Source of the DNA: Escherichia coli
Lineage (GTDB): Bacteria > Pseudomonadota > Gammaproteobacteria > Enterobacterales > Enterobacteriaceae
Assembly (NCBI RefSeq): GCF_030013595.1
Contig: NZ_CP122769.1
Reading direction: 5' to 3' (one strand)
DNA: 64,000 nt
Shown: positions 6,001 to 12,000 of the stretch, piece after piece
How the letters are laid out: every line of letters starts with the position of its first letter
Numbering within the stretch: the stretch's first letter is position 1
Position numbers: made by a program

Positions 6001-9000
6001 TTATGACACGCTGGAACAATAAACAACTGCCGGTAATAAACTCGATATCATATGACGAGACTAACAAGCAGCTGGATGTACTGGCGTCACTTGAAGGCGA
6101 TGGTAACTGGTTCGACTCGGTCTCATTGAGGGAATTTTATCTTTCCGATAAGAACACCGGTACCCGGATGTCACCAACAGGCGTAATCAAATCTCGTATC
6201 TCAGGTAACTACACGATTGCTTATGATTTATCCCGTCAGTCTGAAGGAAAATACAACGTTGAGGTCAACATCAGGGACTTCTTCCAGAACCAGACCAATA
6301 AAACTTTCGGAGAAATTGCTCTGGATAACACTCCTCCGACAGTGGCCATAACATTCGACGGAAAGCCGGTAAAAGACGATACGGTAGTGTACGGCCTGGA
6401 GAACCTCAGGATCGCTCTGGCAGATAATCTGACAACCCCGAGGATAACCCGTCTTCAGCTCGTAGGTGGCCCCACAGCTGATAACGTTGAGCTTACGTGG
6501 TCACCGGCAGGCAAAGATACATACATGCCTGAGTATCCGAGGCTGTTCCCAAATTTCGAACCATCTGAAAATTATTCAATTAGCGTAACAGTTGCCGATA
6601 GTCAGTCGAATACCAAAACCTATACTCAGAAGTTCAGTTATCTACCGAATAACCTTGTGCAGTTACATAATCTACGCACATTGTCGGTCAGTTCACCTCT
6701 CAAAACGACAGATGGCGTACCACTTGCGTACCTGTCCACTAACGTTCTGCGTAAGACAAATGGAGAAATTGCTAAAGGGGTCCAGAACGCAACGCTGACT
6801 GTGCGGAAGGATGCAGCCTTCGGTATTAAATTTAATGGGGCACAGGCGGCTCCAGGCGAGTCAGTTGAGGTGCAAATAGATATGGGCCAGGGGGATAATC
6901 TTCTGTTACCCGTTTATCCTTCCGAAAATGGGAAAGTTGGCACCTCAGAATTCATGATTCAGATCGACGAGTTGAAGTAACTACCCGGAGCCGACAGTAA
7001 AACTGACGGCTTCAATTTTACTGCCCTCCTCGACTCCGATCAGCCAGTACGTCTTCAGAGATTCGCAAGGAAGAACCGAAAGAAAAGTTACTTTAATCGT
7101 ACGTTTCCAGCGATGCTTTCAAAAGACAATGCATACTCGTTGATTACGACAATGGGAGTGAGTGTCGAACCCCTTGAGTAAGGATACTTGGTAAATATAC
7201 AGCCCCGGGGATTCTCTTCCTTCAACCGGGGATGACAACGGGAGTGAGTCCGGCAACTCACACCTGTTGTCACTTCTCTGACATATCGTCATACGAGCTT
7301 ACTCAAGCGCATCCACAAAGATGGGATCGTTTTGAATCTAAACTGGTACTGGTTAGCCAGTCACTTGCATCTACTCCCCCGTCGATATTTAAGTGACAAT
7401 TGTAGTGATCTGCAATACTGGTGTCTCAGAAACACTGACGACGGTAGAGACTCAATACCCTAACCCCTGACAACAGAAGTGAGCTTAGAGGTGTTACGCT
7501 GCTGTCACCTAATGCTTGGGAATTGCCTGACTCACAACCATTGTCATCCGGAGCTACTGATTAACGTTGAACCGCTGGACTTTAATGACAGTGGTAGTGA
7601 TGGATAGGCTCATTTCCATTGTCGTCATTTTATCGGACAAGCCTCTTCGTCCTACAGGTTTAAGCTGACAATGGTAGTGATTGGATGATCTCACTACTGT
7701 TGTCACTCAGTTCTTTGAGCGGACCCTTCCCTCGGTTGGTCGGCATTAACAACGGTAGTGACTCGATTGGCTCACTGCCATTGTCATCGTGTAAATGACG
7801 TACCTTATCAGCTCAGCTGAAAGCAATGACAACGGTAGTGACTCTAATTGCTCACTGCCATTGTCGTCGTGTCTATTGAGAGCCTTATCAGTGCACCTGA
7901 AAAGCAATGACAACGGTAGTGATTCTAATGGCTCACTACCGTTGTCACCGTGTGTATTGAGAGGATGGTCCACCTAACTGGACGTATATGACAATGGTAG
8001 TGACTTTAATAGCTCACTACCATTGTCGGTGTGTGAATTGAGAGGATGAGCAGCTCAGCTGTACGTCCATGACAATGGTAATGACTTAATGAGCTCACTA
8101 CCGTTGTCACCCTGTTAATTAAGAGGCTCATCTGCTCTTCTGGAAGGCTATGACAACGGAAGTGACTTGCTGGGCTCACTGCCATTGTCGCCGTATGAAT
8201 TGAGAGGATCATCCGCTCTTCTGGATGGCAATGACAACGGTAATGACTTAATAGGCTCACTACCATTGTCACCCTGTGAATTGAGAGGATGATCTGCTTA
8301 ACCAGACGGCCATGACAACGGTAGTGACTTTCTGGGCTCAATACCGTTGTCACCCTGTGAGTTAAGAGGTTGACCCGCTCTACTGGACGGCCATGACAAC
8401 GGTAGTCACTTTCTGGGCTCACTACCGTTGTCACCCTGTGAGTTAAGAGGTTGACCCGCTCTACTGGACGGCCATGACAACGGTAGTCACTTTCTGGGCT
8501 CACTACCGTTGTCGCCATATAGAATGAGAGGAGCATCAGCTCAACTGAACGGCAATGACTACAGTAATGAGCTGGATGAAGCATAACCATTGACATCTGG
8601 CCCAACCGGAAGCCGTATTCGCCAATCCAATCGAGATTCACAATGGCCGTGACTCGCCGCATTAAGTTCCGGTGTCCTCCCAAAGCTGAACGCACACTCG
8701 GAGGACAATGACAATGCCAGTAAGGTACACATCATTACCATTGTCACTATAGCTACCAGAGAAGCCGGGATTTGAATGTCGATGGTAGTGAGTGGGTCAA
8801 CTCACTGCCATTGTCACCCCGTTACGATATTTTCCGTTGGATGTACTGGCCAATGAAGTAAAGCGTAGAAACCGGGTGTTAACAGGTGACTCAGGAGAAA
8901 GCGTTGAATTTCGCAATCTCGATCTACATAGGGTGGTAGAGAACAATGACAACGGTAATGACTTTTGACTCATTACCGTTGACGTGAAAGAGCGGGCTGG

Positions 9001-12000
9001 GACTAACGAAAATCGAAGAAGTAATTTAGCACCCGGAGCCTAAACCGCCGGGTTAACTTTAGCTGGCGTTGCTGTTCTTTTTTCTGGCTTCGAAGACTAC
9101 GAATATAGCGCAGTTCTTCAGCGGTTAAATCATGGACGGTAAGAACATCATCGCCGTCAATCGGGTCAGCTGGTGGGCATAACTCACCTTCTAAAACAGA
9201 AGACCCTGAGTTCTCTTCTTCATCTTCAACCACTTCTAAAGGAGGCTGAGTATTGTTCAAATTCAGATCGGGATCCCGCTTATGAATCTGGAAGTATACT
9301 TTTCCGTCTTTCTTAATTTCGGTGTACTTGAGGTATCCTATCGATGCCAACTCTTCAAGAGCCTTTCTCACGGTAGCATTCTGACTATTTGCTCGTGTTT
9401 TGAGGTTCAGACGATTTTTCAGCCGAGTAAGGGATATCGGTATAGGATTTGGCGGTAATGACTCTATGAACGTATAGAGAGCCTGGGCGCTTTCCTTCTT
9501 GGCCAACTCCTTAATTGCCTTCAGCTGCATCAAAACCTTATGATCGTATTGATAGAGCTCGAAAATCTTAGGATCAACCTGAAGGACAACCTGATCTGAT
9601 TCCGGGTCTAACAGGGCAGACTGTACCAGATGCGTTGTATAGACTTTGGACGAGTTATTACTGGTGAACGACAAGGTAACGGATGCTAACCTGCGTAAGG
9701 AGGCGTCTATACGTTTTCTGGACGCTGTAGATGAGCGATAATTTTCAGGCGTACATAGCTTGAGGAATTCAGTGAATTTTAAGCTTATCGTGTCATTGTT
9801 AATCGGATGATTGGCATAGGTTCGAATGATGCCCATCCACGTCTTAAAATCTACTGACATATTAAGACGCTCACCGACAATTGAAATATTGGTGAACCCC
9901 TCGCTCTCCATTAAAGAGAGCGTCTGTAACTCTTTCGTTGCGTCAAAGCCAACCGTTTTATATTCCCGATTTTGACGCCCCACACTCTTTGGTGATGGGA
10001 CGAACAGCCCGAGCCGCATCAAAGCAATAGACTGCACCGTACGGTTGCTGTTAGGACGCAAAATGATGTCTTTACCTGATTCTTTCTCTCTAACAGAGAA
10101 AGCCCTGGTGACCAGGTCCTGCTGCTCAGTATCTTTCTCTTTAGTCATAATAAGTTATCACTGAATGTGTAAACAGATTGGTGAATAGTAAGCCCCAGCG
10201 AACTCTATGTCACTGGATGGATCATTGTGATGATCCATATCTGTGCATAAGTTCTACCTAAAAAAACGACTCCACTCATTAAAACTTGGCAAAAACTCTT
10301 TGCATACAATGACCTGCAACTCTTATCAACAACGGATCAGATCAAGTTAAAAAGATCTAATGAAAAGTCACTACTATTGTCGCTCTGATCACTACTGATG
10401 TCAAAAAACTCATTACCAACGTTATAATAATCACTACTAATGTCAAAATAATCACTACTGTTGTCACTGATCACGTCTCAGGCCTTGTGCCGTCTGGCCT
10501 GGAGGCAGCGGGGATCTCTTTTGATCTATCAGGAACACTAAGGTACTAATTATTGGAACTACCTTGTGGAAAATGGGGATAAATAAATGCTTAGTTCTTA
10601 TACAGGTCTCAACTTGCCTCCCTGATAAAAACTGTCGTCAAAGCTAAATCACAGCCACAGGCATTTTCGGTGGATAAATTTTTGAGAAATAGAAGCATAC
10701 ATGCAGACTCGTGTCGCAAGTAATTGAAAGTAATGATTTATTTAAATAATGCGAGTCACCTTACCTCACAGTGGAAGTTTAAGTCTAACCTCACTACCAT
10801 TGTCACTTAAAATCATTACCAACGTCGAAATAGTCTCTACCATTGTCTTTTAAGTCACTCCCGTTGTCACTTATGTCGCTACTGTTGTCAGTGACAATGC
10901 TCCAGCCCAGTAACCATGCGGCCTACAGCGTACCGGGATCTTCTTTGTACTCTCTGGCACCTTTGGGATCATTTATTGGATCTACATGAGGGATAAAATC
11001 TTTTGACGATTTCGTAGTGCAGTTATACCAGCGACTTAGCAAGACAAAAGCTGCAATTTAGTGACGAGTTACTAGTCTGCCCAACAAGAGCAATGCAGAG
11101 AAGATATGTGGTGAAATGACCATGGTAGTGAGTCTAATCACTACCATGGTCCGCAGTAAGCGTTACTTACGCAATGAACGTCGGACTGATTTGCAACAAC
11201 ATGGGCTACGGCGCATCAGAAGGCGGCCGTTGTGCTTCAGCAAAACAGCCCTGCTTTATTTTAATTCTTCAATGTTAATCATGAACTCAGATCTGCCAGT
11301 AAGGCCGGATACAGCAGGGAAAATAGGAAAGCTACGGCTGTCCCCGAGCCCCAAATCCAGTTGAAGCTCTTTGCTTTCACCTGGCATCGCAGAAACGCCA
11401 TTTACAGTCACGCCGAATGCAGCGTCCTTACGGACAGTAAGCACTGCGTCCTGAAGCCCTGTAGCGATTGAACCATCCTTTTTACGCAGCTGGCTGGCAT
11501 ACAGAACAGCCAGAGCAGTATTGTCAGATGTTTTGAGAGAAGCATTGACAGCTAAGGTTTTCAGATTCTCTAGCCTGACGAGATTGTTTGGAAGGTAGTT
11601 AAATTCGACTGAGCTTTCTTTAACGTTGTTCATCTCATCTTTGGCCTGAACTGTGAGAGTGTATGTTTCGCCTTCATTAAGAGACGGAAAGATCTTGGGA
11701 TAATTAGGTGCATACAGGTTGTTTCCCAGATTCACCCAAGACAATTCCACCGCATCAGAAACAGGGCCACCGCGAAGAGTCATACGGCTTAAGGATGGTT
11801 TAGTTAGAGCATCGGTGAGCTGTATACGGACGTTCTCCAGCCCATATACTGTTACGTTTTTGCTGATCGGTTTTCCTTCGTAGCTAATACTTACAGATGG
11901 TGCTGTATTATCAACGACAACTGTTTGATAAGGGAGGTTACCGGTATTGTTGAATGTATCTTGGGCATTAATCACCACGTTATAACTGCCTTCTGGTACC

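What the first reader, a model, noticed from the sequence alone, without database searches (positions are those of the whole stretch)
7130..11150. Replicon with classic direct iterons upstream and a 1.9-kb array of ~22 palindromic iteron pairs downstream
Upstream of the rep start are two sets of five direct ~21-bp iterons (10367..10476, 10789..10900) around an AT-rich stretch. Downstream of the rep stop, the same half-site is arranged as ~44-bp palindromes within ~80-bp tandem units repeated about 22 times (7130..8990); another palindrome lies at 11110..11150. An array this large is unusual and suggests a strong copy-number-control (handcuffing) or incompatibility locus. The 229-aa track ORF at 8006..8695 is an artefact of translating the repeats.
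Basis: partly seen in the sequence, partly recalled or inferred. Interest (0 to 1): 0.5.

Follow-up and report, generated by a model that had tools for sequence, protein, structure and literature searches.

The report
Known IncHI2 replicon with iteron array
This is the already-described RepHI2 replication module of IncHI2 resistance plasmids, whose large downstream repeat array is most likely a sink and pairing site for the plasmid's own initiator protein that keeps copy number low; it is real and unusually big, but not new.

Summary
The repeats are real and far beyond chance: 45 of 46 matches to the 14-nt core in the 64-kb window lie in 7148-11151, against 0.55 expected. The region is 100% identical to the RepHI2 (RepHI2A) replicon found in more than 1,000 IncHI2 (R478-type) plasmids. 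The array is published: secondary sources cite Gilmour 2004 for "twelve 80-81 bp iterons" and Page 2001 for cloning evidence of function.

There are 39 half-sites in 7144-8987, forming 17 head-to-head pairs (offset 22-24 bp, mostly 24) plus solitary sites. Only about 12-13 units keep a strict 81-bp register, not 22.

Rep belongs to the RepFIB/P1-RepA branch of the Rep_3 winged-helix initiators. Relatives share the layout of two direct-iteron sets upstream and mixed-orientation sites downstream, but with only about 6-14 downstream sites.

Two lineages with 86-88% identical Rep keep about 30 downstream sites. Each has ten pairs at about 24 bp, but no tandem array. The conserved module is therefore the pair, not the 81-bp unit. 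The arms do not co-vary, which argues against a hairpin function.

The most likely function is a P1 incA / F incC-type Rep titration and handcuffing locus. This is inferred and was not tested here. Novelty: already known. Interest is low.

The parts
7144..8987 (.). Downstream iteron array. It holds 39 copies of the origin iteron core (TCACTACCRTTGTCA) in both orientations, including 17 head-to-head pairs (TGACAACGGTAGTGA-N8-10-TCACTACCGTTGTCA, core-to-core offset 22-24 bp, mostly 24).
   Evidence: PWM scans. Pattern search, (35 of the 46 window-wide hits lie here). The repeat finder families D3-D8 and the inverted-repeat list.
7583..8600 (.). Regular part of the array: about 12-13 units in an 81-bp register (24 bp within a pair plus 57 bp between pairs). 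Units 8304-8384 and 8385-8465 are near-identical, indicating a recent duplication. These correspond to the published 'twelve 80-81 bp long iterons'.
   Evidence: TRF, (7742-8570, period 81, 10.3 copies). The repeat finder D1-D3. Unit alignment. Literature.
9003..10148 (-). The rep gene (RepHI2 initiator). In this window it reads 381 aa. In nearly all IncHI2 records it is 362 aa with a stop at 9059.
   Evidence: ORF list. Annotation 'IncHI-type plasmid replication initiator protein RepHI2'. Family placement.
9077..9083 (-). Poly-A run with one extra A relative to reference plasmids. It replaces the last 5 residues of Rep with a 24-residue tail. This is either a homopolymer sequencing error or a real C-terminal frameshift.
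   Evidence: Pairwise alignment with L001. tblastn alignments stop at residue 357 in most records, and the one record with the identical 381-aa form has no CDS listed.
10364..10469 (+). Iteron set A: five direct 21-bp iterons in phase, about 215 bp upstream of the rep start codon. It contains a sigma-70-like promoter match on the rep strand (10404..10376, 10 of 12).
   Evidence: TRF. PWM. Promoter scan, (a consensus match only).
10787..10893 (+). Iteron set B: five direct 21-22-bp iterons, a diverged duplicate of set A (74% identity over 86 aligned columns).
   Evidence: TRF. PWM. Self-alignment. Both sets are conserved in L002 and L012.
10242..10250 (-). Perfect DnaA box (TTATGCACA) between iteron set A and the rep start. 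One-mismatch boxes lie at 10323-10331(+), 10565-10573(-), 10574-10582(-) and 10669-10677(-).
   Evidence: Pattern scan.
10335..10526 (.). GATC (Dam site) cluster flanking iteron set A: 7 sites in about 190 bp, against a window average of 3.4 per kb. It includes the motif GGGGATCTCTTTTGATCT (10510-10527), which also occurs next to the iterons of a replicon with about 50% identical Rep (L003). A second cluster of 3 GATC sites lies at 10937-10982 next to set B.
   Evidence: L003 families D7 and D12.
11114..11155 (.). Isolated head-to-head iteron pair beyond set B, with a 20-bp offset (6-nt inner gap). No equivalent was found upstream of the iteron sets in L002.
8006..8695 (-). A 229-aa ORF produced by reading through in-frame 81-nt (27-codon) repeats. 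It is very probably not a gene.
   Evidence: No CDS is called here in most RefSeq annotations.

Best explanation
Window 7144-11155 is the RepHI2 (RepHI2A) basic replicon of an IncHI2 (R478-type) conjugative plasmid. It is an iteron-controlled theta replicon of the RepFIB / P1-RepA branch of the Rep_3 winged-helix initiators.

Upstream of rep lie two diverged copies of an origin-type module. Each has five in-phase 21-bp direct iterons flanked by GATC clusters, with DnaA boxes nearby. By analogy with P1 and RepFIB, Rep monomers bound here, together with DnaA, open the origin.

Downstream of rep, 39 further copies of the same site form a negative-control (inc) locus equivalent to P1 incA, F incC or the downstream RepFIB repeats. 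The array binds Rep and so lowers free initiator (titration). Through Rep-Rep contacts it also pairs with origin iterons in cis or on sister plasmids (handcuffing). Both effects hold this plasmid of more than 200 kb at a very low copy number and cause incompatibility.

The conserved functional module is a head-to-head pair of complete iterons at a fixed ~24-bp register. That arrangement places the same domain of two bound Rep molecules next to each other. The 81-bp tandem array of IncHI2 is an amplification of one such pair plus spacer by unequal recombination, and it still gains and loses units.

Shown here: identity, anatomy, enrichment, family placement, conservation of the pair geometry, and lack of arm covariation. 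Inferred: Rep binding, titration or handcuffing, and the effect on copy number.
For: Identity: 100% over 4.3 kb to plasmids annotated repHI2, with 1,236 matching records.

Same site at origin and array: 45 of 46 core matches are confined to 7148-11151, against 0.55 expected. An origin-only PWM finds 48 sites inside the region and 1 outside.

Rep family: about 50% identity to RepFIB/RepA. 37 of 40 aligned homologues hit Pfam Rep3_N and 23 of 40 hit Rep3_C. The predicted fold best matches RctB domains 2-3, the RepE dimer-operator complex 2Z9O, a Rep WH1 domain and TrfA.

The layout is a family trait. L003, L005, L013 and the window's own second replicon all have upstream direct iterons and about 6-14 downstream sites in mixed orientation.

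Pair geometry is conserved. In L002 (Rep 86%) 10 of 11 adjacent minus-to-plus transitions are 21-25 bp, and in L012 (Rep 88%) 10 of 10 are 20-25 bp. Plus-to-minus transitions range from 18 to 122 bp. The arrays of the window and L002 align only through the palindromes, whereas rep plus origin align collinearly at 75.6%.

Within the array, half-site columns are at least 90% conserved and the inner spacer 50-70%.

Origin-type features lie upstream, not in the array: DnaA boxes and GATC clusters.

Literature: the R478 repeats are reported as functional in cloning experiments (PMC8490738 citing Page 2001). In the IncHI1 plasmid R27, a downstream iteron block (incC of the FIA-like replicon) binds its initiator and is needed for stability (PMC4853401). 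Titration and handcuffing by extra initiator sites are documented for V. cholerae chromosome 2 (PMC6090056).
Against: No binding, copy-number or incompatibility measurement was possible here, and the two primary papers (Page 2001, Gilmour 2004) could not be read.

Differences between two IncHI2 lineages are not significantly depleted in half-site cores (12/546 vs 37/1298, p=0.53), so that selection test is uninformative.

Under the origin-only PWM, array sites score somewhat lower than origin sites (median about 20 vs 24 bits), so a higher affinity of the array cannot be claimed.

Natural plasmids tolerate IS insertion in the array and loss of rep (L009, L010; PMC9599605). IncHI2 plasmids carry a second replicon, so the array's contribution in the whole plasmid may be small.

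Part of the inter-pair spacer (GTGAATTGAGAGG) is also 80-90% conserved between units. This could be recent amplification or a second, unidentified site.
Confidence: 0.62

Rival explanations
1. The array is a positive or essential part of the origin. In this view the 'long iterons' are the initiator-binding sites at which replication starts, or they act as a replication enhancer that loads Rep onto the origin.
For: Secondary literature calls the 80-81-bp repeats 'the iterons' of the replicon and says cloning suggested functional activity. The sites are good matches to the origin iteron.
Against: DnaA boxes, GATC clusters and phased direct iterons all lie upstream of rep, not in the array. In the related P1, F and RepFIB paradigm (established knowledge) the downstream repeats are dispensable negative elements. 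The array's AT content is below the window average (52.4% vs 56.8%). IS insertion within the array is tolerated in natural plasmids, although a second replicon could mask a defect.
Confidence: 0.1
2. Only a few sites are needed for control, and most of the array is selectively neutral surplus generated by unequal recombination of an 81-bp unit. This is a satellite-like expansion of an ancestral small control locus.
For: Unit number varies by +/-1 between lineages: TRF gives 9.3, 10.3 and 11.2 copies, and L011 has one unit more than the window. Two adjacent units are near-identical. Lineage differences are not depleted in cores. Part of the spacer is conserved between units, as expected from recent amplification.
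Against: Lineages without any tandem array (L002, L012) still keep about 30 sites and 10 pairs in 1.4-1.5 kb. A high site number is therefore maintained independently of tandem amplification.
Confidence: 0.13
3. The array is a stability or segregation element, or a replication-fork barrier, built from initiator-binding sites. This would be functionally like the family of repeats (FR) of Epstein-Barr virus oriP, which is bound by EBNA1, rather than a copy-number brake.
For: A large array of dyad-symmetric initiator sites about 1.4 kb from an origin resembles the FR/DS layout of oriP (established knowledge; analogy only). In R27 a downstream iteron block is required for plasmid stability (PMC4853401).
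Against: The plasmid has dedicated partition genes elsewhere: a ParA-family gene at window 39530-40783 with its own 3.1-kb repeat array upstream. There is no evidence that Rep_3 initiators tether plasmids. The R27 result is equally explained by copy-number misregulation, as its authors discuss.
Confidence: 0.08
4. The palindromes act as DNA hairpins or cruciforms, for example as single-strand initiation signals on the transferred strand during conjugation.
For: Individual pairs fold as ssDNA hairpins of -13 to -16 kcal/mol, with z-scores of -5 to -8 against shuffles.
Against: There is no covariation between arms across 26 pairs from two lineages. 90.5% of cells are paired, against 89.7 +/- 0.5% when arms are shuffled between pairs (57 of 500 shuffles as high), and 3 pairs have double changes against 3.1 expected. 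The same site occurs as direct repeats at the origin. A whole 81-nt unit folds no better than shuffles (z = -0.42). There is no Rfam match.
Confidence: 0.03
5. The array encodes a repetitive protein, the 229-aa ORF at 8006..8695.
For: The ORF is open in the window and in the 97.4%-identical lineage L006. A few GenBank records annotate a hypothetical protein here.
Against: The 81-nt period equals 27 codons, so the frame is preserved automatically. Overlapping ORFs occur in other frames and on both strands. There is no family hit. PGAP makes no call in most records. Lineages with 86% Rep have no equivalent ORF.
Confidence: 0.02

Closest known systems
RepHI2A replicon of the IncHI2 plasmid R478 (Page, Whelan & Colleran 2001; Gilmour et al. 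2004)
   Same: It is the same element. The region is 100% or 97% identical to IncHI2 plasmids annotated repHI2. The regular part of the array matches the published 'twelve 80-81 bp iterons about 500 bp from rep'.
   Different: Nothing essential differs. This copy has one extra A in a poly-A run that changes the Rep C-terminus, and the unit count differs by +/-1 from other lineages. One secondary source places the long repeats next to the rep initiation codon. In the sequence they lie beyond the stop codon. I could not check whether the primary papers already describe each long repeat as an inverted pair of the short origin iteron.
P1 plasmid replicon (oriR with incC iterons - repA - incA) and the RepFIB replicon of IncF plasmids
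   Same: The Rep is homologous (about 50% identity to RepFIB/RepA). The order is the same: origin iterons, then rep, then downstream control iterons in both orientations. DnaA boxes and GATC-rich sequence lie next to the origin iterons. The titration and handcuffing roles of incA are established knowledge recalled from memory, not tested here.
   Different: P1 incA has nine sites and RepFIB about six. RepHI2 has 39, mostly arranged as fixed head-to-head pairs, and in IncHI2 these are amplified as an 81-bp tandem unit. The upstream iteron module is duplicated.
F plasmid / R27 RepFIA incC (five iterons downstream of repE)
   Same: It is a downstream block of initiator-binding repeats. In R27 the block binds its E protein in vitro and is needed for plasmid stability (PMC4853401).
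   Different: It belongs to a different Rep_3 subfamily and uses direct repeats only. It has 5 sites rather than 39.
RepE / pPS10 RepA / pi dimer operators (inverted repeats overlapping the rep promoter)
   Same: It has dyad symmetry built from iteron sequence. The predicted Rep fold matches the RepE dimer-operator complex 2Z9O.
   Different: Operator arms carry only part of an iteron and overlap the promoter. Here each arm is a complete iteron core, the pairs lie 3' of rep, and there are 17 of them.
Vibrio cholerae chromosome 2 RctB 39-mers and the ori2-inc iterons
   Same: A second class or arrangement of initiator site outside the minimal origin acts as the main negative regulator by titration and handcuffing (PMC6090056). 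RctB domains 2-3 are the top structural match to the Rep model.
   Different: The 39-mers differ in sequence from the 12-mer iterons and number only a few. Here the sites are the same as the origin iterons and differ only in arrangement.
Long (83-bp) iterons of Acinetobacter mega-plasmid pALWED1.1
   Same: The authors explicitly compare their ten 83-bp repeats with the twelve 81-bp repeats of R478 (PMC8490738).
   Different: That paper reports no sequence similarity between the two. The internal structure of the Acinetobacter repeats was not examined here.

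Membership tests
RepHI2 (RepHI2A) replicon of IncHI2 plasmids | Near-identity of rep and flanks to plasmids typed IncHI2 and annotated repHI2 | tested here: met
   100% identity over 4,301 bp to many records typed IncHI2A. 1,236 records match.
RepHI2 (RepHI2A) replicon of IncHI2 plasmids | About twelve 80-81-bp repeats roughly 500 bp from rep | tested here: met
   TRF finds an 81-bp period with 10.3 copies. The repeat finder finds 12-13 units in register. The regular block ends about 400-460 bp from the rep stop. 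The published description is quoted.
Iteron-type theta replicon with a Rep_3 (WH1-WH2) initiator | Initiator homologous to Rep_3 proteins with a two-winged-helix fold | tested here: met
   RepHI2 itself misses the Pfam and NCBIfam thresholds. It matches Rep3_N-positive proteins at about E=1e-100. 37 of 40 aligned homologues hit Rep3_N and 23 of 40 hit Rep3_C. The model (pLDDT 65.6) matches RctB, RepE, a Rep WH1 domain and TrfA. A sequence profile finds no PDB relative.
Iteron-type theta replicon with a Rep_3 (WH1-WH2) initiator | Phased direct repeats of 17-22 bp next to rep | tested here: met
   Two sets of five, with 21-bp spacing.
Iteron-type theta replicon with a Rep_3 (WH1-WH2) initiator | DnaA box(es) and an AT-rich unwinding element next to the iterons | tested here: inconclusive
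   There is one perfect DnaA box and several one-mismatch boxes. AT enrichment is marginal: 59.3% vs 56.8%.
Iteron-type theta replicon with a Rep_3 (WH1-WH2) initiator | Rep binds the iterons, and the fragment replicates autonomously | not testable with these tools
   Autonomous replication of RepHI2A is reported by Page 2001, known here only through citations.
P1 incA / F incC-type copy-number-control (inc) iteron locus | Extra copies of the origin iteron outside the origin, downstream of rep | tested here: met
   39 sites in 7144-8987 match the origin core. They lie 3' of the rep stop.
P1 incA / F incC-type copy-number-control (inc) iteron locus | Deletion raises copy number, and the cloned locus exerts incompatibility | not testable with these tools
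   This needs mini-replicon experiments.
P1 incA / F incC-type copy-number-control (inc) iteron locus | Rep-mediated pairing of control and origin iterons (handcuffing) | not testable with these tools
   This needs ligation-enhancement assays, electron microscopy or AFM.
Rep-dimer operator (autorepression site of F, pPS10 or pSC101 type) | An inverted repeat of a partial iteron overlapping the rep promoter | tested here: not met
   The arms carry the full 15-nt core. The pairs lie downstream of rep or more than 950 bp upstream of it. No half-site lies in 10149-10363.
Partition centromere (parS / parC-like repeat array) | A repeat array adjacent to partition genes and bound by the partition adaptor | tested here: not met
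   The array is flanked by rep and an Ig-like-domain gene. The ParA-family gene lies about 30 kb away behind a different array of 249-bp units. The site equals the Rep iteron.
Structured DNA/RNA element (hairpin, cruciform, ncRNA) | Compensatory changes that keep the arms complementary, or a match to a known RNA family | tested here: not met
   Covariation is no better than with shuffled arm partners. There is no Rfam match at E<=0.1.

The most novel reading that the evidence does not exclude
The real regulatory unit of RepHI2-type replicons may not be an 81-bp 'long iteron'. It may instead be a head-to-head pair of complete iterons at a fixed ~24-bp register. This would be a distinct class of initiator site that captures two Rep molecules with their dimerisation (WH1-side) surfaces facing each other. 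Functionally it would be comparable to the RctB 39-mers of Vibrio chromosome 2. Its number (10 pairs in relatives, 17 in IncHI2) would set the very low copy number of these resistance plasmids. If the primary literature has not described this, it would be a new variant of iteron control with a natural, tunable dosage series.
Probability: 0.2. Interest if true: 0.45.

Novelty: already known. Interest (0 to 1): 0.2.

Why it matters
IncHI2 plasmids are major carriers of mcr, ESBL and carbapenemase genes in Salmonella, E. coli and Enterobacter, and their stable low-copy maintenance depends on replicons such as this one. The element and its long repeats are already in the literature, so the finding itself adds little. 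The modest addition here has two parts. First, the conserved module is a fixed-geometry pair of full iterons, kept in three diverged lineages. Second, the IncHI2 81-bp array is a still-dynamic amplification of that pair. If array size tunes copy number, natural unit-number variants would provide a ready-made series for testing titration and handcuffing models. The Rep-array interaction could also be a target for plasmid curing, as has been proposed for R27 incC.

Tried and rejected
- **Primary papers.** Page 2001 and Gilmour 2004 are not held, and R478 (BX664015) is not in the plasmid collection. What those papers say about the internal palindromes is therefore unknown to me.
- **Direct family assignment of Rep.** Pfam, NCBIfam, PDB phmmer and a PDB profile search all gave nothing. 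Placement needed homologues and a fold search.
- **Selection test from lineage differences.** Comparing the window with L006 gave no significant depletion in half-site cores (p=0.53). The differences cluster at 8265-8442, which suggests unit shuffling rather than point substitution. The test was dropped as uninformative.
- **Claim that array sites are better sites than origin sites.** This was rejected as circular, because the first PWM was built mostly from array sites. Under an origin-only PWM the array sites score lower.
- **Hairpin/cruciform hypothesis.** Rejected for lack of covariation.
- **Coding hypothesis for the 229-aa ORF.** Rejected.
- **Centromere hypothesis.** Rejected on context.
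- **"3 places per record" in the BLAST tables.** I take these to be off-register alignments within the tandem array. I did not follow them up as separate loci.
- **Technical limit.** Several loci fetched in parallel never reached the Python sandbox. L003-L005, L007-L010 and L013 were therefore analysed only with the built-in repeat and pattern tools.

Full report

Yes, with corrections.

- The rep ORF lies at 9003..10148 on the minus strand.
- Upstream of it are two sets of five direct iterons at 21-bp spacing: 10364-10469 and 10787-10893. All ten are on the + strand (TRF; the repeat finder D7; PWM scan).
- The 14-nt core TCACTACCRTTGTC, allowing up to 2 mismatches, occurs 46 times in the 64-kb window. 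45 of these fall in 7148-11151, whereas shuffles give 0.55 +/- 0.78.
- My first weight matrix was built mostly from array sites. I therefore rebuilt one from 29 origin iterons only, taken from three lineages. It finds 48 sites of at least 12 bits inside 6900-11400 and one in the remaining 59.5 kb.

Downstream of the rep stop, 39 half-sites occupy 7144-8987.

- They form 17 head-to-head pairs of the form TGACAACGGTAGTGA-N8-10-TCACTACCGTTGTCA. The core-to-core offset is 22-24 bp, mostly 24.
- The remaining sites are solitary or degenerate.
- Only the central block, roughly 7583-8600, keeps a strict 81-bp register: 24 bp within a pair and 57 bp between pairs. TRF reports 7742-8570 with 10.3 copies at 78% match. 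The repeat finder puts 12-13 units in register.

- The palindrome at 11114-11155 is real but tighter, with a 20-bp offset.
- The "AT-rich stretch" is barely so: 59.3% AT against 56.8% for the window.

**2. What is it?**

The region is 100% identical over 4.3 kb to many plasmids typed IncHI2A and annotated "IncHI-type plasmid replication initiator protein RepHI2". In all, 1,236 plasmid records match.

The array is published.

- A review cites Page 2001 for iterons "up to even 76-bp in plasmid R478".
- I could not obtain either primary paper.
- One point in the secondary source is at odds with the sequence. It places the long repeats next to the initiation codon, but they lie beyond the stop codon.

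**3. The initiator**

- RepHI2 itself has no Pfam, NCBIfam or PDB sequence match.
- It is about 50% identical to RepFIB/RepA-type initiators.
- It matches proteins carrying PF01051 at about E=1e-100.
- 37 of 40 aligned homologues hit Rep3_N (WH1) and 23 of 40 hit Rep3_C (WH2).
- An AlphaFold model has mean pLDDT 65.6, with the two core domains at 70-90.
- The model's best solved matches are RctB domains 2-3, the RepE dimer-operator complex 2Z9O, a Rep WH1 domain and TrfA-DNA. All are iteron initiators.
- Global TM-scores are low (0.2-0.34), so the fold match supports the family placement but says nothing about domain arrangement.

**4. Comparative anatomy**

The ground plan is a family trait: two upstream direct-iteron sets, then rep, then downstream sites in both orientations. 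It appears in each of these:

- a classic RepFIB replicon (L005);
- pHCM2-type replicons (L003);
- a Morganella phage-plasmid with 60% identical Rep (L013);
- the window's own second replicon at about 23558-24433, which uses unrelated iterons.

Each of these has about 6-14 downstream sites. The L013 iteron (GACCACTATAGAGAG) is recognisably homologous to the RepHI2 one (GACAACGGTAGTGAG). L013 also has one head-to-head pair with a 9-nt inner gap.

Two lineages closer to RepHI2 are decisive: L002 (Rep 86%) and L012 (Rep 88%).

- Both keep two upstream sets of direct iterons: 5+5 in L002, and 5+4 detected in L012.
- Both keep about 30 downstream half-sites in 1.4-1.5 kb.
- L002 has 10 of 11 adjacent minus-to-plus transitions at 21-25 bp, and L012 has 10 of 10 at 20-25 bp. 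Plus-to-minus gaps range from 18 to 122 bp.
- Neither has an 81-bp tandem array.

Rep plus origin of the window and L002 align collinearly at 75.6% over 1.56 kb. The arrays align only through individual ~40-bp palindromes, in either orientation.

The conserved object is therefore the pair at its ~24-bp register. The IncHI2 tandem array is an amplification of one pair plus spacer.

The array is still dynamic.

- TRF copy numbers are 9.3 (L007, L008), 10.3 (window) and 11.2 (L009).
- L011 has one unit more than the window.
- Two adjacent units in the window are near-identical.
- IS elements interrupt or truncate the array in some plasmids.

**5. Tests that could have contradicted the protein-site reading**

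- *Hairpin or cruciform.* Single pairs fold well as ssDNA, at -13 to -16 kcal/mol. Across 26 pairs from two lineages, however, the arms are no more complementary to their own partner than to any other: 90.5% paired against 89.7 +/- 0.5% after shuffling, with 57 of 500 shuffles as high, and 3 pairs with double changes against 3.1 expected. The "palindrome" is two independent copies of one consensus.
- *RNA.* There is no Rfam match.
- *Coding.* The 229-aa ORF stays open because 81 nt equals 27 codons. Other frames on both strands are also open, there is no family hit, PGAP usually makes no call, and L002 has no equivalent ORF.
- *Purifying selection on cores between IncHI2 lineages.* This was not detected (12/546 vs 37/1298, p=0.53), so the test is uninformative. 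The differences cluster in a way that suggests unit shuffling.
- *Conservation within the array.* Half-site columns are the most conserved (at least 90%) and the inner spacer the least (50-70%). One block of the inter-pair spacer (GTGAATTGAGAGG) is also 80-90% conserved. It is absent from L002, so I attribute it to recent amplification.

**6. Origin side**

- A perfect DnaA box lies at 10242-10250, with one-mismatch boxes at 10323, 10565, 10574 and 10669.
- There are seven GATC sites in 10335-10526 and three in 10937-10982, against 3.4 per kb overall.
- The motif GGGGATCTCTTTTGATCT next to set A recurs next to the iterons of L003.
- The best promoter-like match on the rep strand (10 of 12) lies inside iteron set A. 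That would fit P1-style autorepression through the iterons, but it is only a consensus match.
- Sets A and B are diverged duplicates, at 74% identity over 86 columns. Which one serves as the origin cannot be decided here.

**7. Mechanism**

I commit to this being a Rep-binding negative-control locus of the P1 incA / F incC type, acting by titration and handcuffing, with confidence about 0.6.

- *Shown here:* the array uses the same site as the origin; its position is downstream of rep, as in relatives; site number and pair geometry are conserved across lineages; and there is no evidence for a structural or coding role.
- *Inferred:* Rep binding, the effect on copy number and incompatibility, and the idea that the head-to-head geometry juxtaposes the same domain of two Rep molecules.
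- *Supporting literature:* the R27 incC block binds its initiator and is needed for stability (PMC4853401), and extra initiator sites titrate and handcuff in Vibrio chromosome 2 (PMC6090056).

Rivals, in order of confidence:

- a largely neutral expansion of a smaller control locus (0.13);
- a positive origin component (0.10);
- a stability or fork-barrier element (0.08);
- a hairpin (0.03);
- a coding region (0.02).

**8. Verdict**

It is the known RepHI2A replicon with its known long repeats.

- Novelty: already known.
- Interest: 0.2.
- Possibly new element: the conserved unit is a fixed-register pair of full iterons, kept in three lineages. I could not check this against the primary literature.

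Noticed in passing
window 36060-39150: A second, larger non-coding tandem array: 249-bp period, 12.6 copies, 73% match, with no ORF of at least 120 aa over it. In a reference record it falls in a 4.3-kb un-annotated gap between a TraC-family gene and a ParA-family gene (window ORF 39530-40783). It may be the partition centromere or an incompatibility determinant, but this is unverified.
   Followed up: partly
window 9077-9083 (rep codon ~356): One extra A in a poly-A run gives a 381-aa Rep with a 24-residue novel tail instead of the usual 362 aa. Only one plasmid record (NZ_CP139813.1) shares this form, and no CDS is listed for it there. This is either a homopolymer sequencing error or a genuine C-terminal frameshift.
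   Followed up: partly
window ~23558-24433 (+), with iterons at 23420-23506 and 24573-25155: A second 'RepB family' initiator lies about 14 kb from RepHI2. It has its own unrelated iterons (AAAGCATTTGAATGAAT) in the same layout: direct upstream, mixed orientation downstream. It is presumably the RepHI1A(R478)/repHI2C replicon.
   Followed up: partly
window ~19185-19997 (+), mapped from L011 6910-7722: A plasmid-encoded Dam-family adenine methyltransferase lies between the two replicons, and the RepHI2 origin region is rich in GATC sites. This hints at methylation- or sequestration-linked control, which was not examined.
   Followed up: no
window 4560-6980 (+) and 11256-13712 (-): The replicon sits between two convergent paralogous genes of about 810 aa, encoding signal-peptide-bearing Ig-like-domain proteins. 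Their 3' ends form a 43-nt imperfect inverted repeat (6938-6980 / 11256-11298). A third paralogue lies further along in related plasmids (L011 29129-31519). Their function is unknown.
   Followed up: no
L009 (NZ_CP091641.1) 2983-4175; L010 (CP082699.1) from ~4115: Natural IncHI2 plasmids carry an ISKpn18 insertion inside the degenerate left part of the array, or an IS100 truncation that removes the rest of the array and rep. The replicon is therefore dispensable when the second replicon is present. This agrees with evolved clones that lost repHI2 (PMC9599605).
   Followed up: partly
window 10218-10235: A short perfect palindrome, GGATCAT-TGTG-ATGATCC, carries two GATC sites and lies just upstream of a weak promoter-like match for rep (10213..10185). 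It could be an operator or SeqA target. Its conservation was not checked.
   Followed up: no
L002 5255-5302; L012 ~7780-7826: In both lineages with 86-88% identical Rep, an extra iteron pair in the opposite (tail-to-tail, 26-bp offset) arrangement lies about 800 bp beyond the array, past an HNH-endonuclease gene. No equivalent was seen in the window.
   Followed up: no
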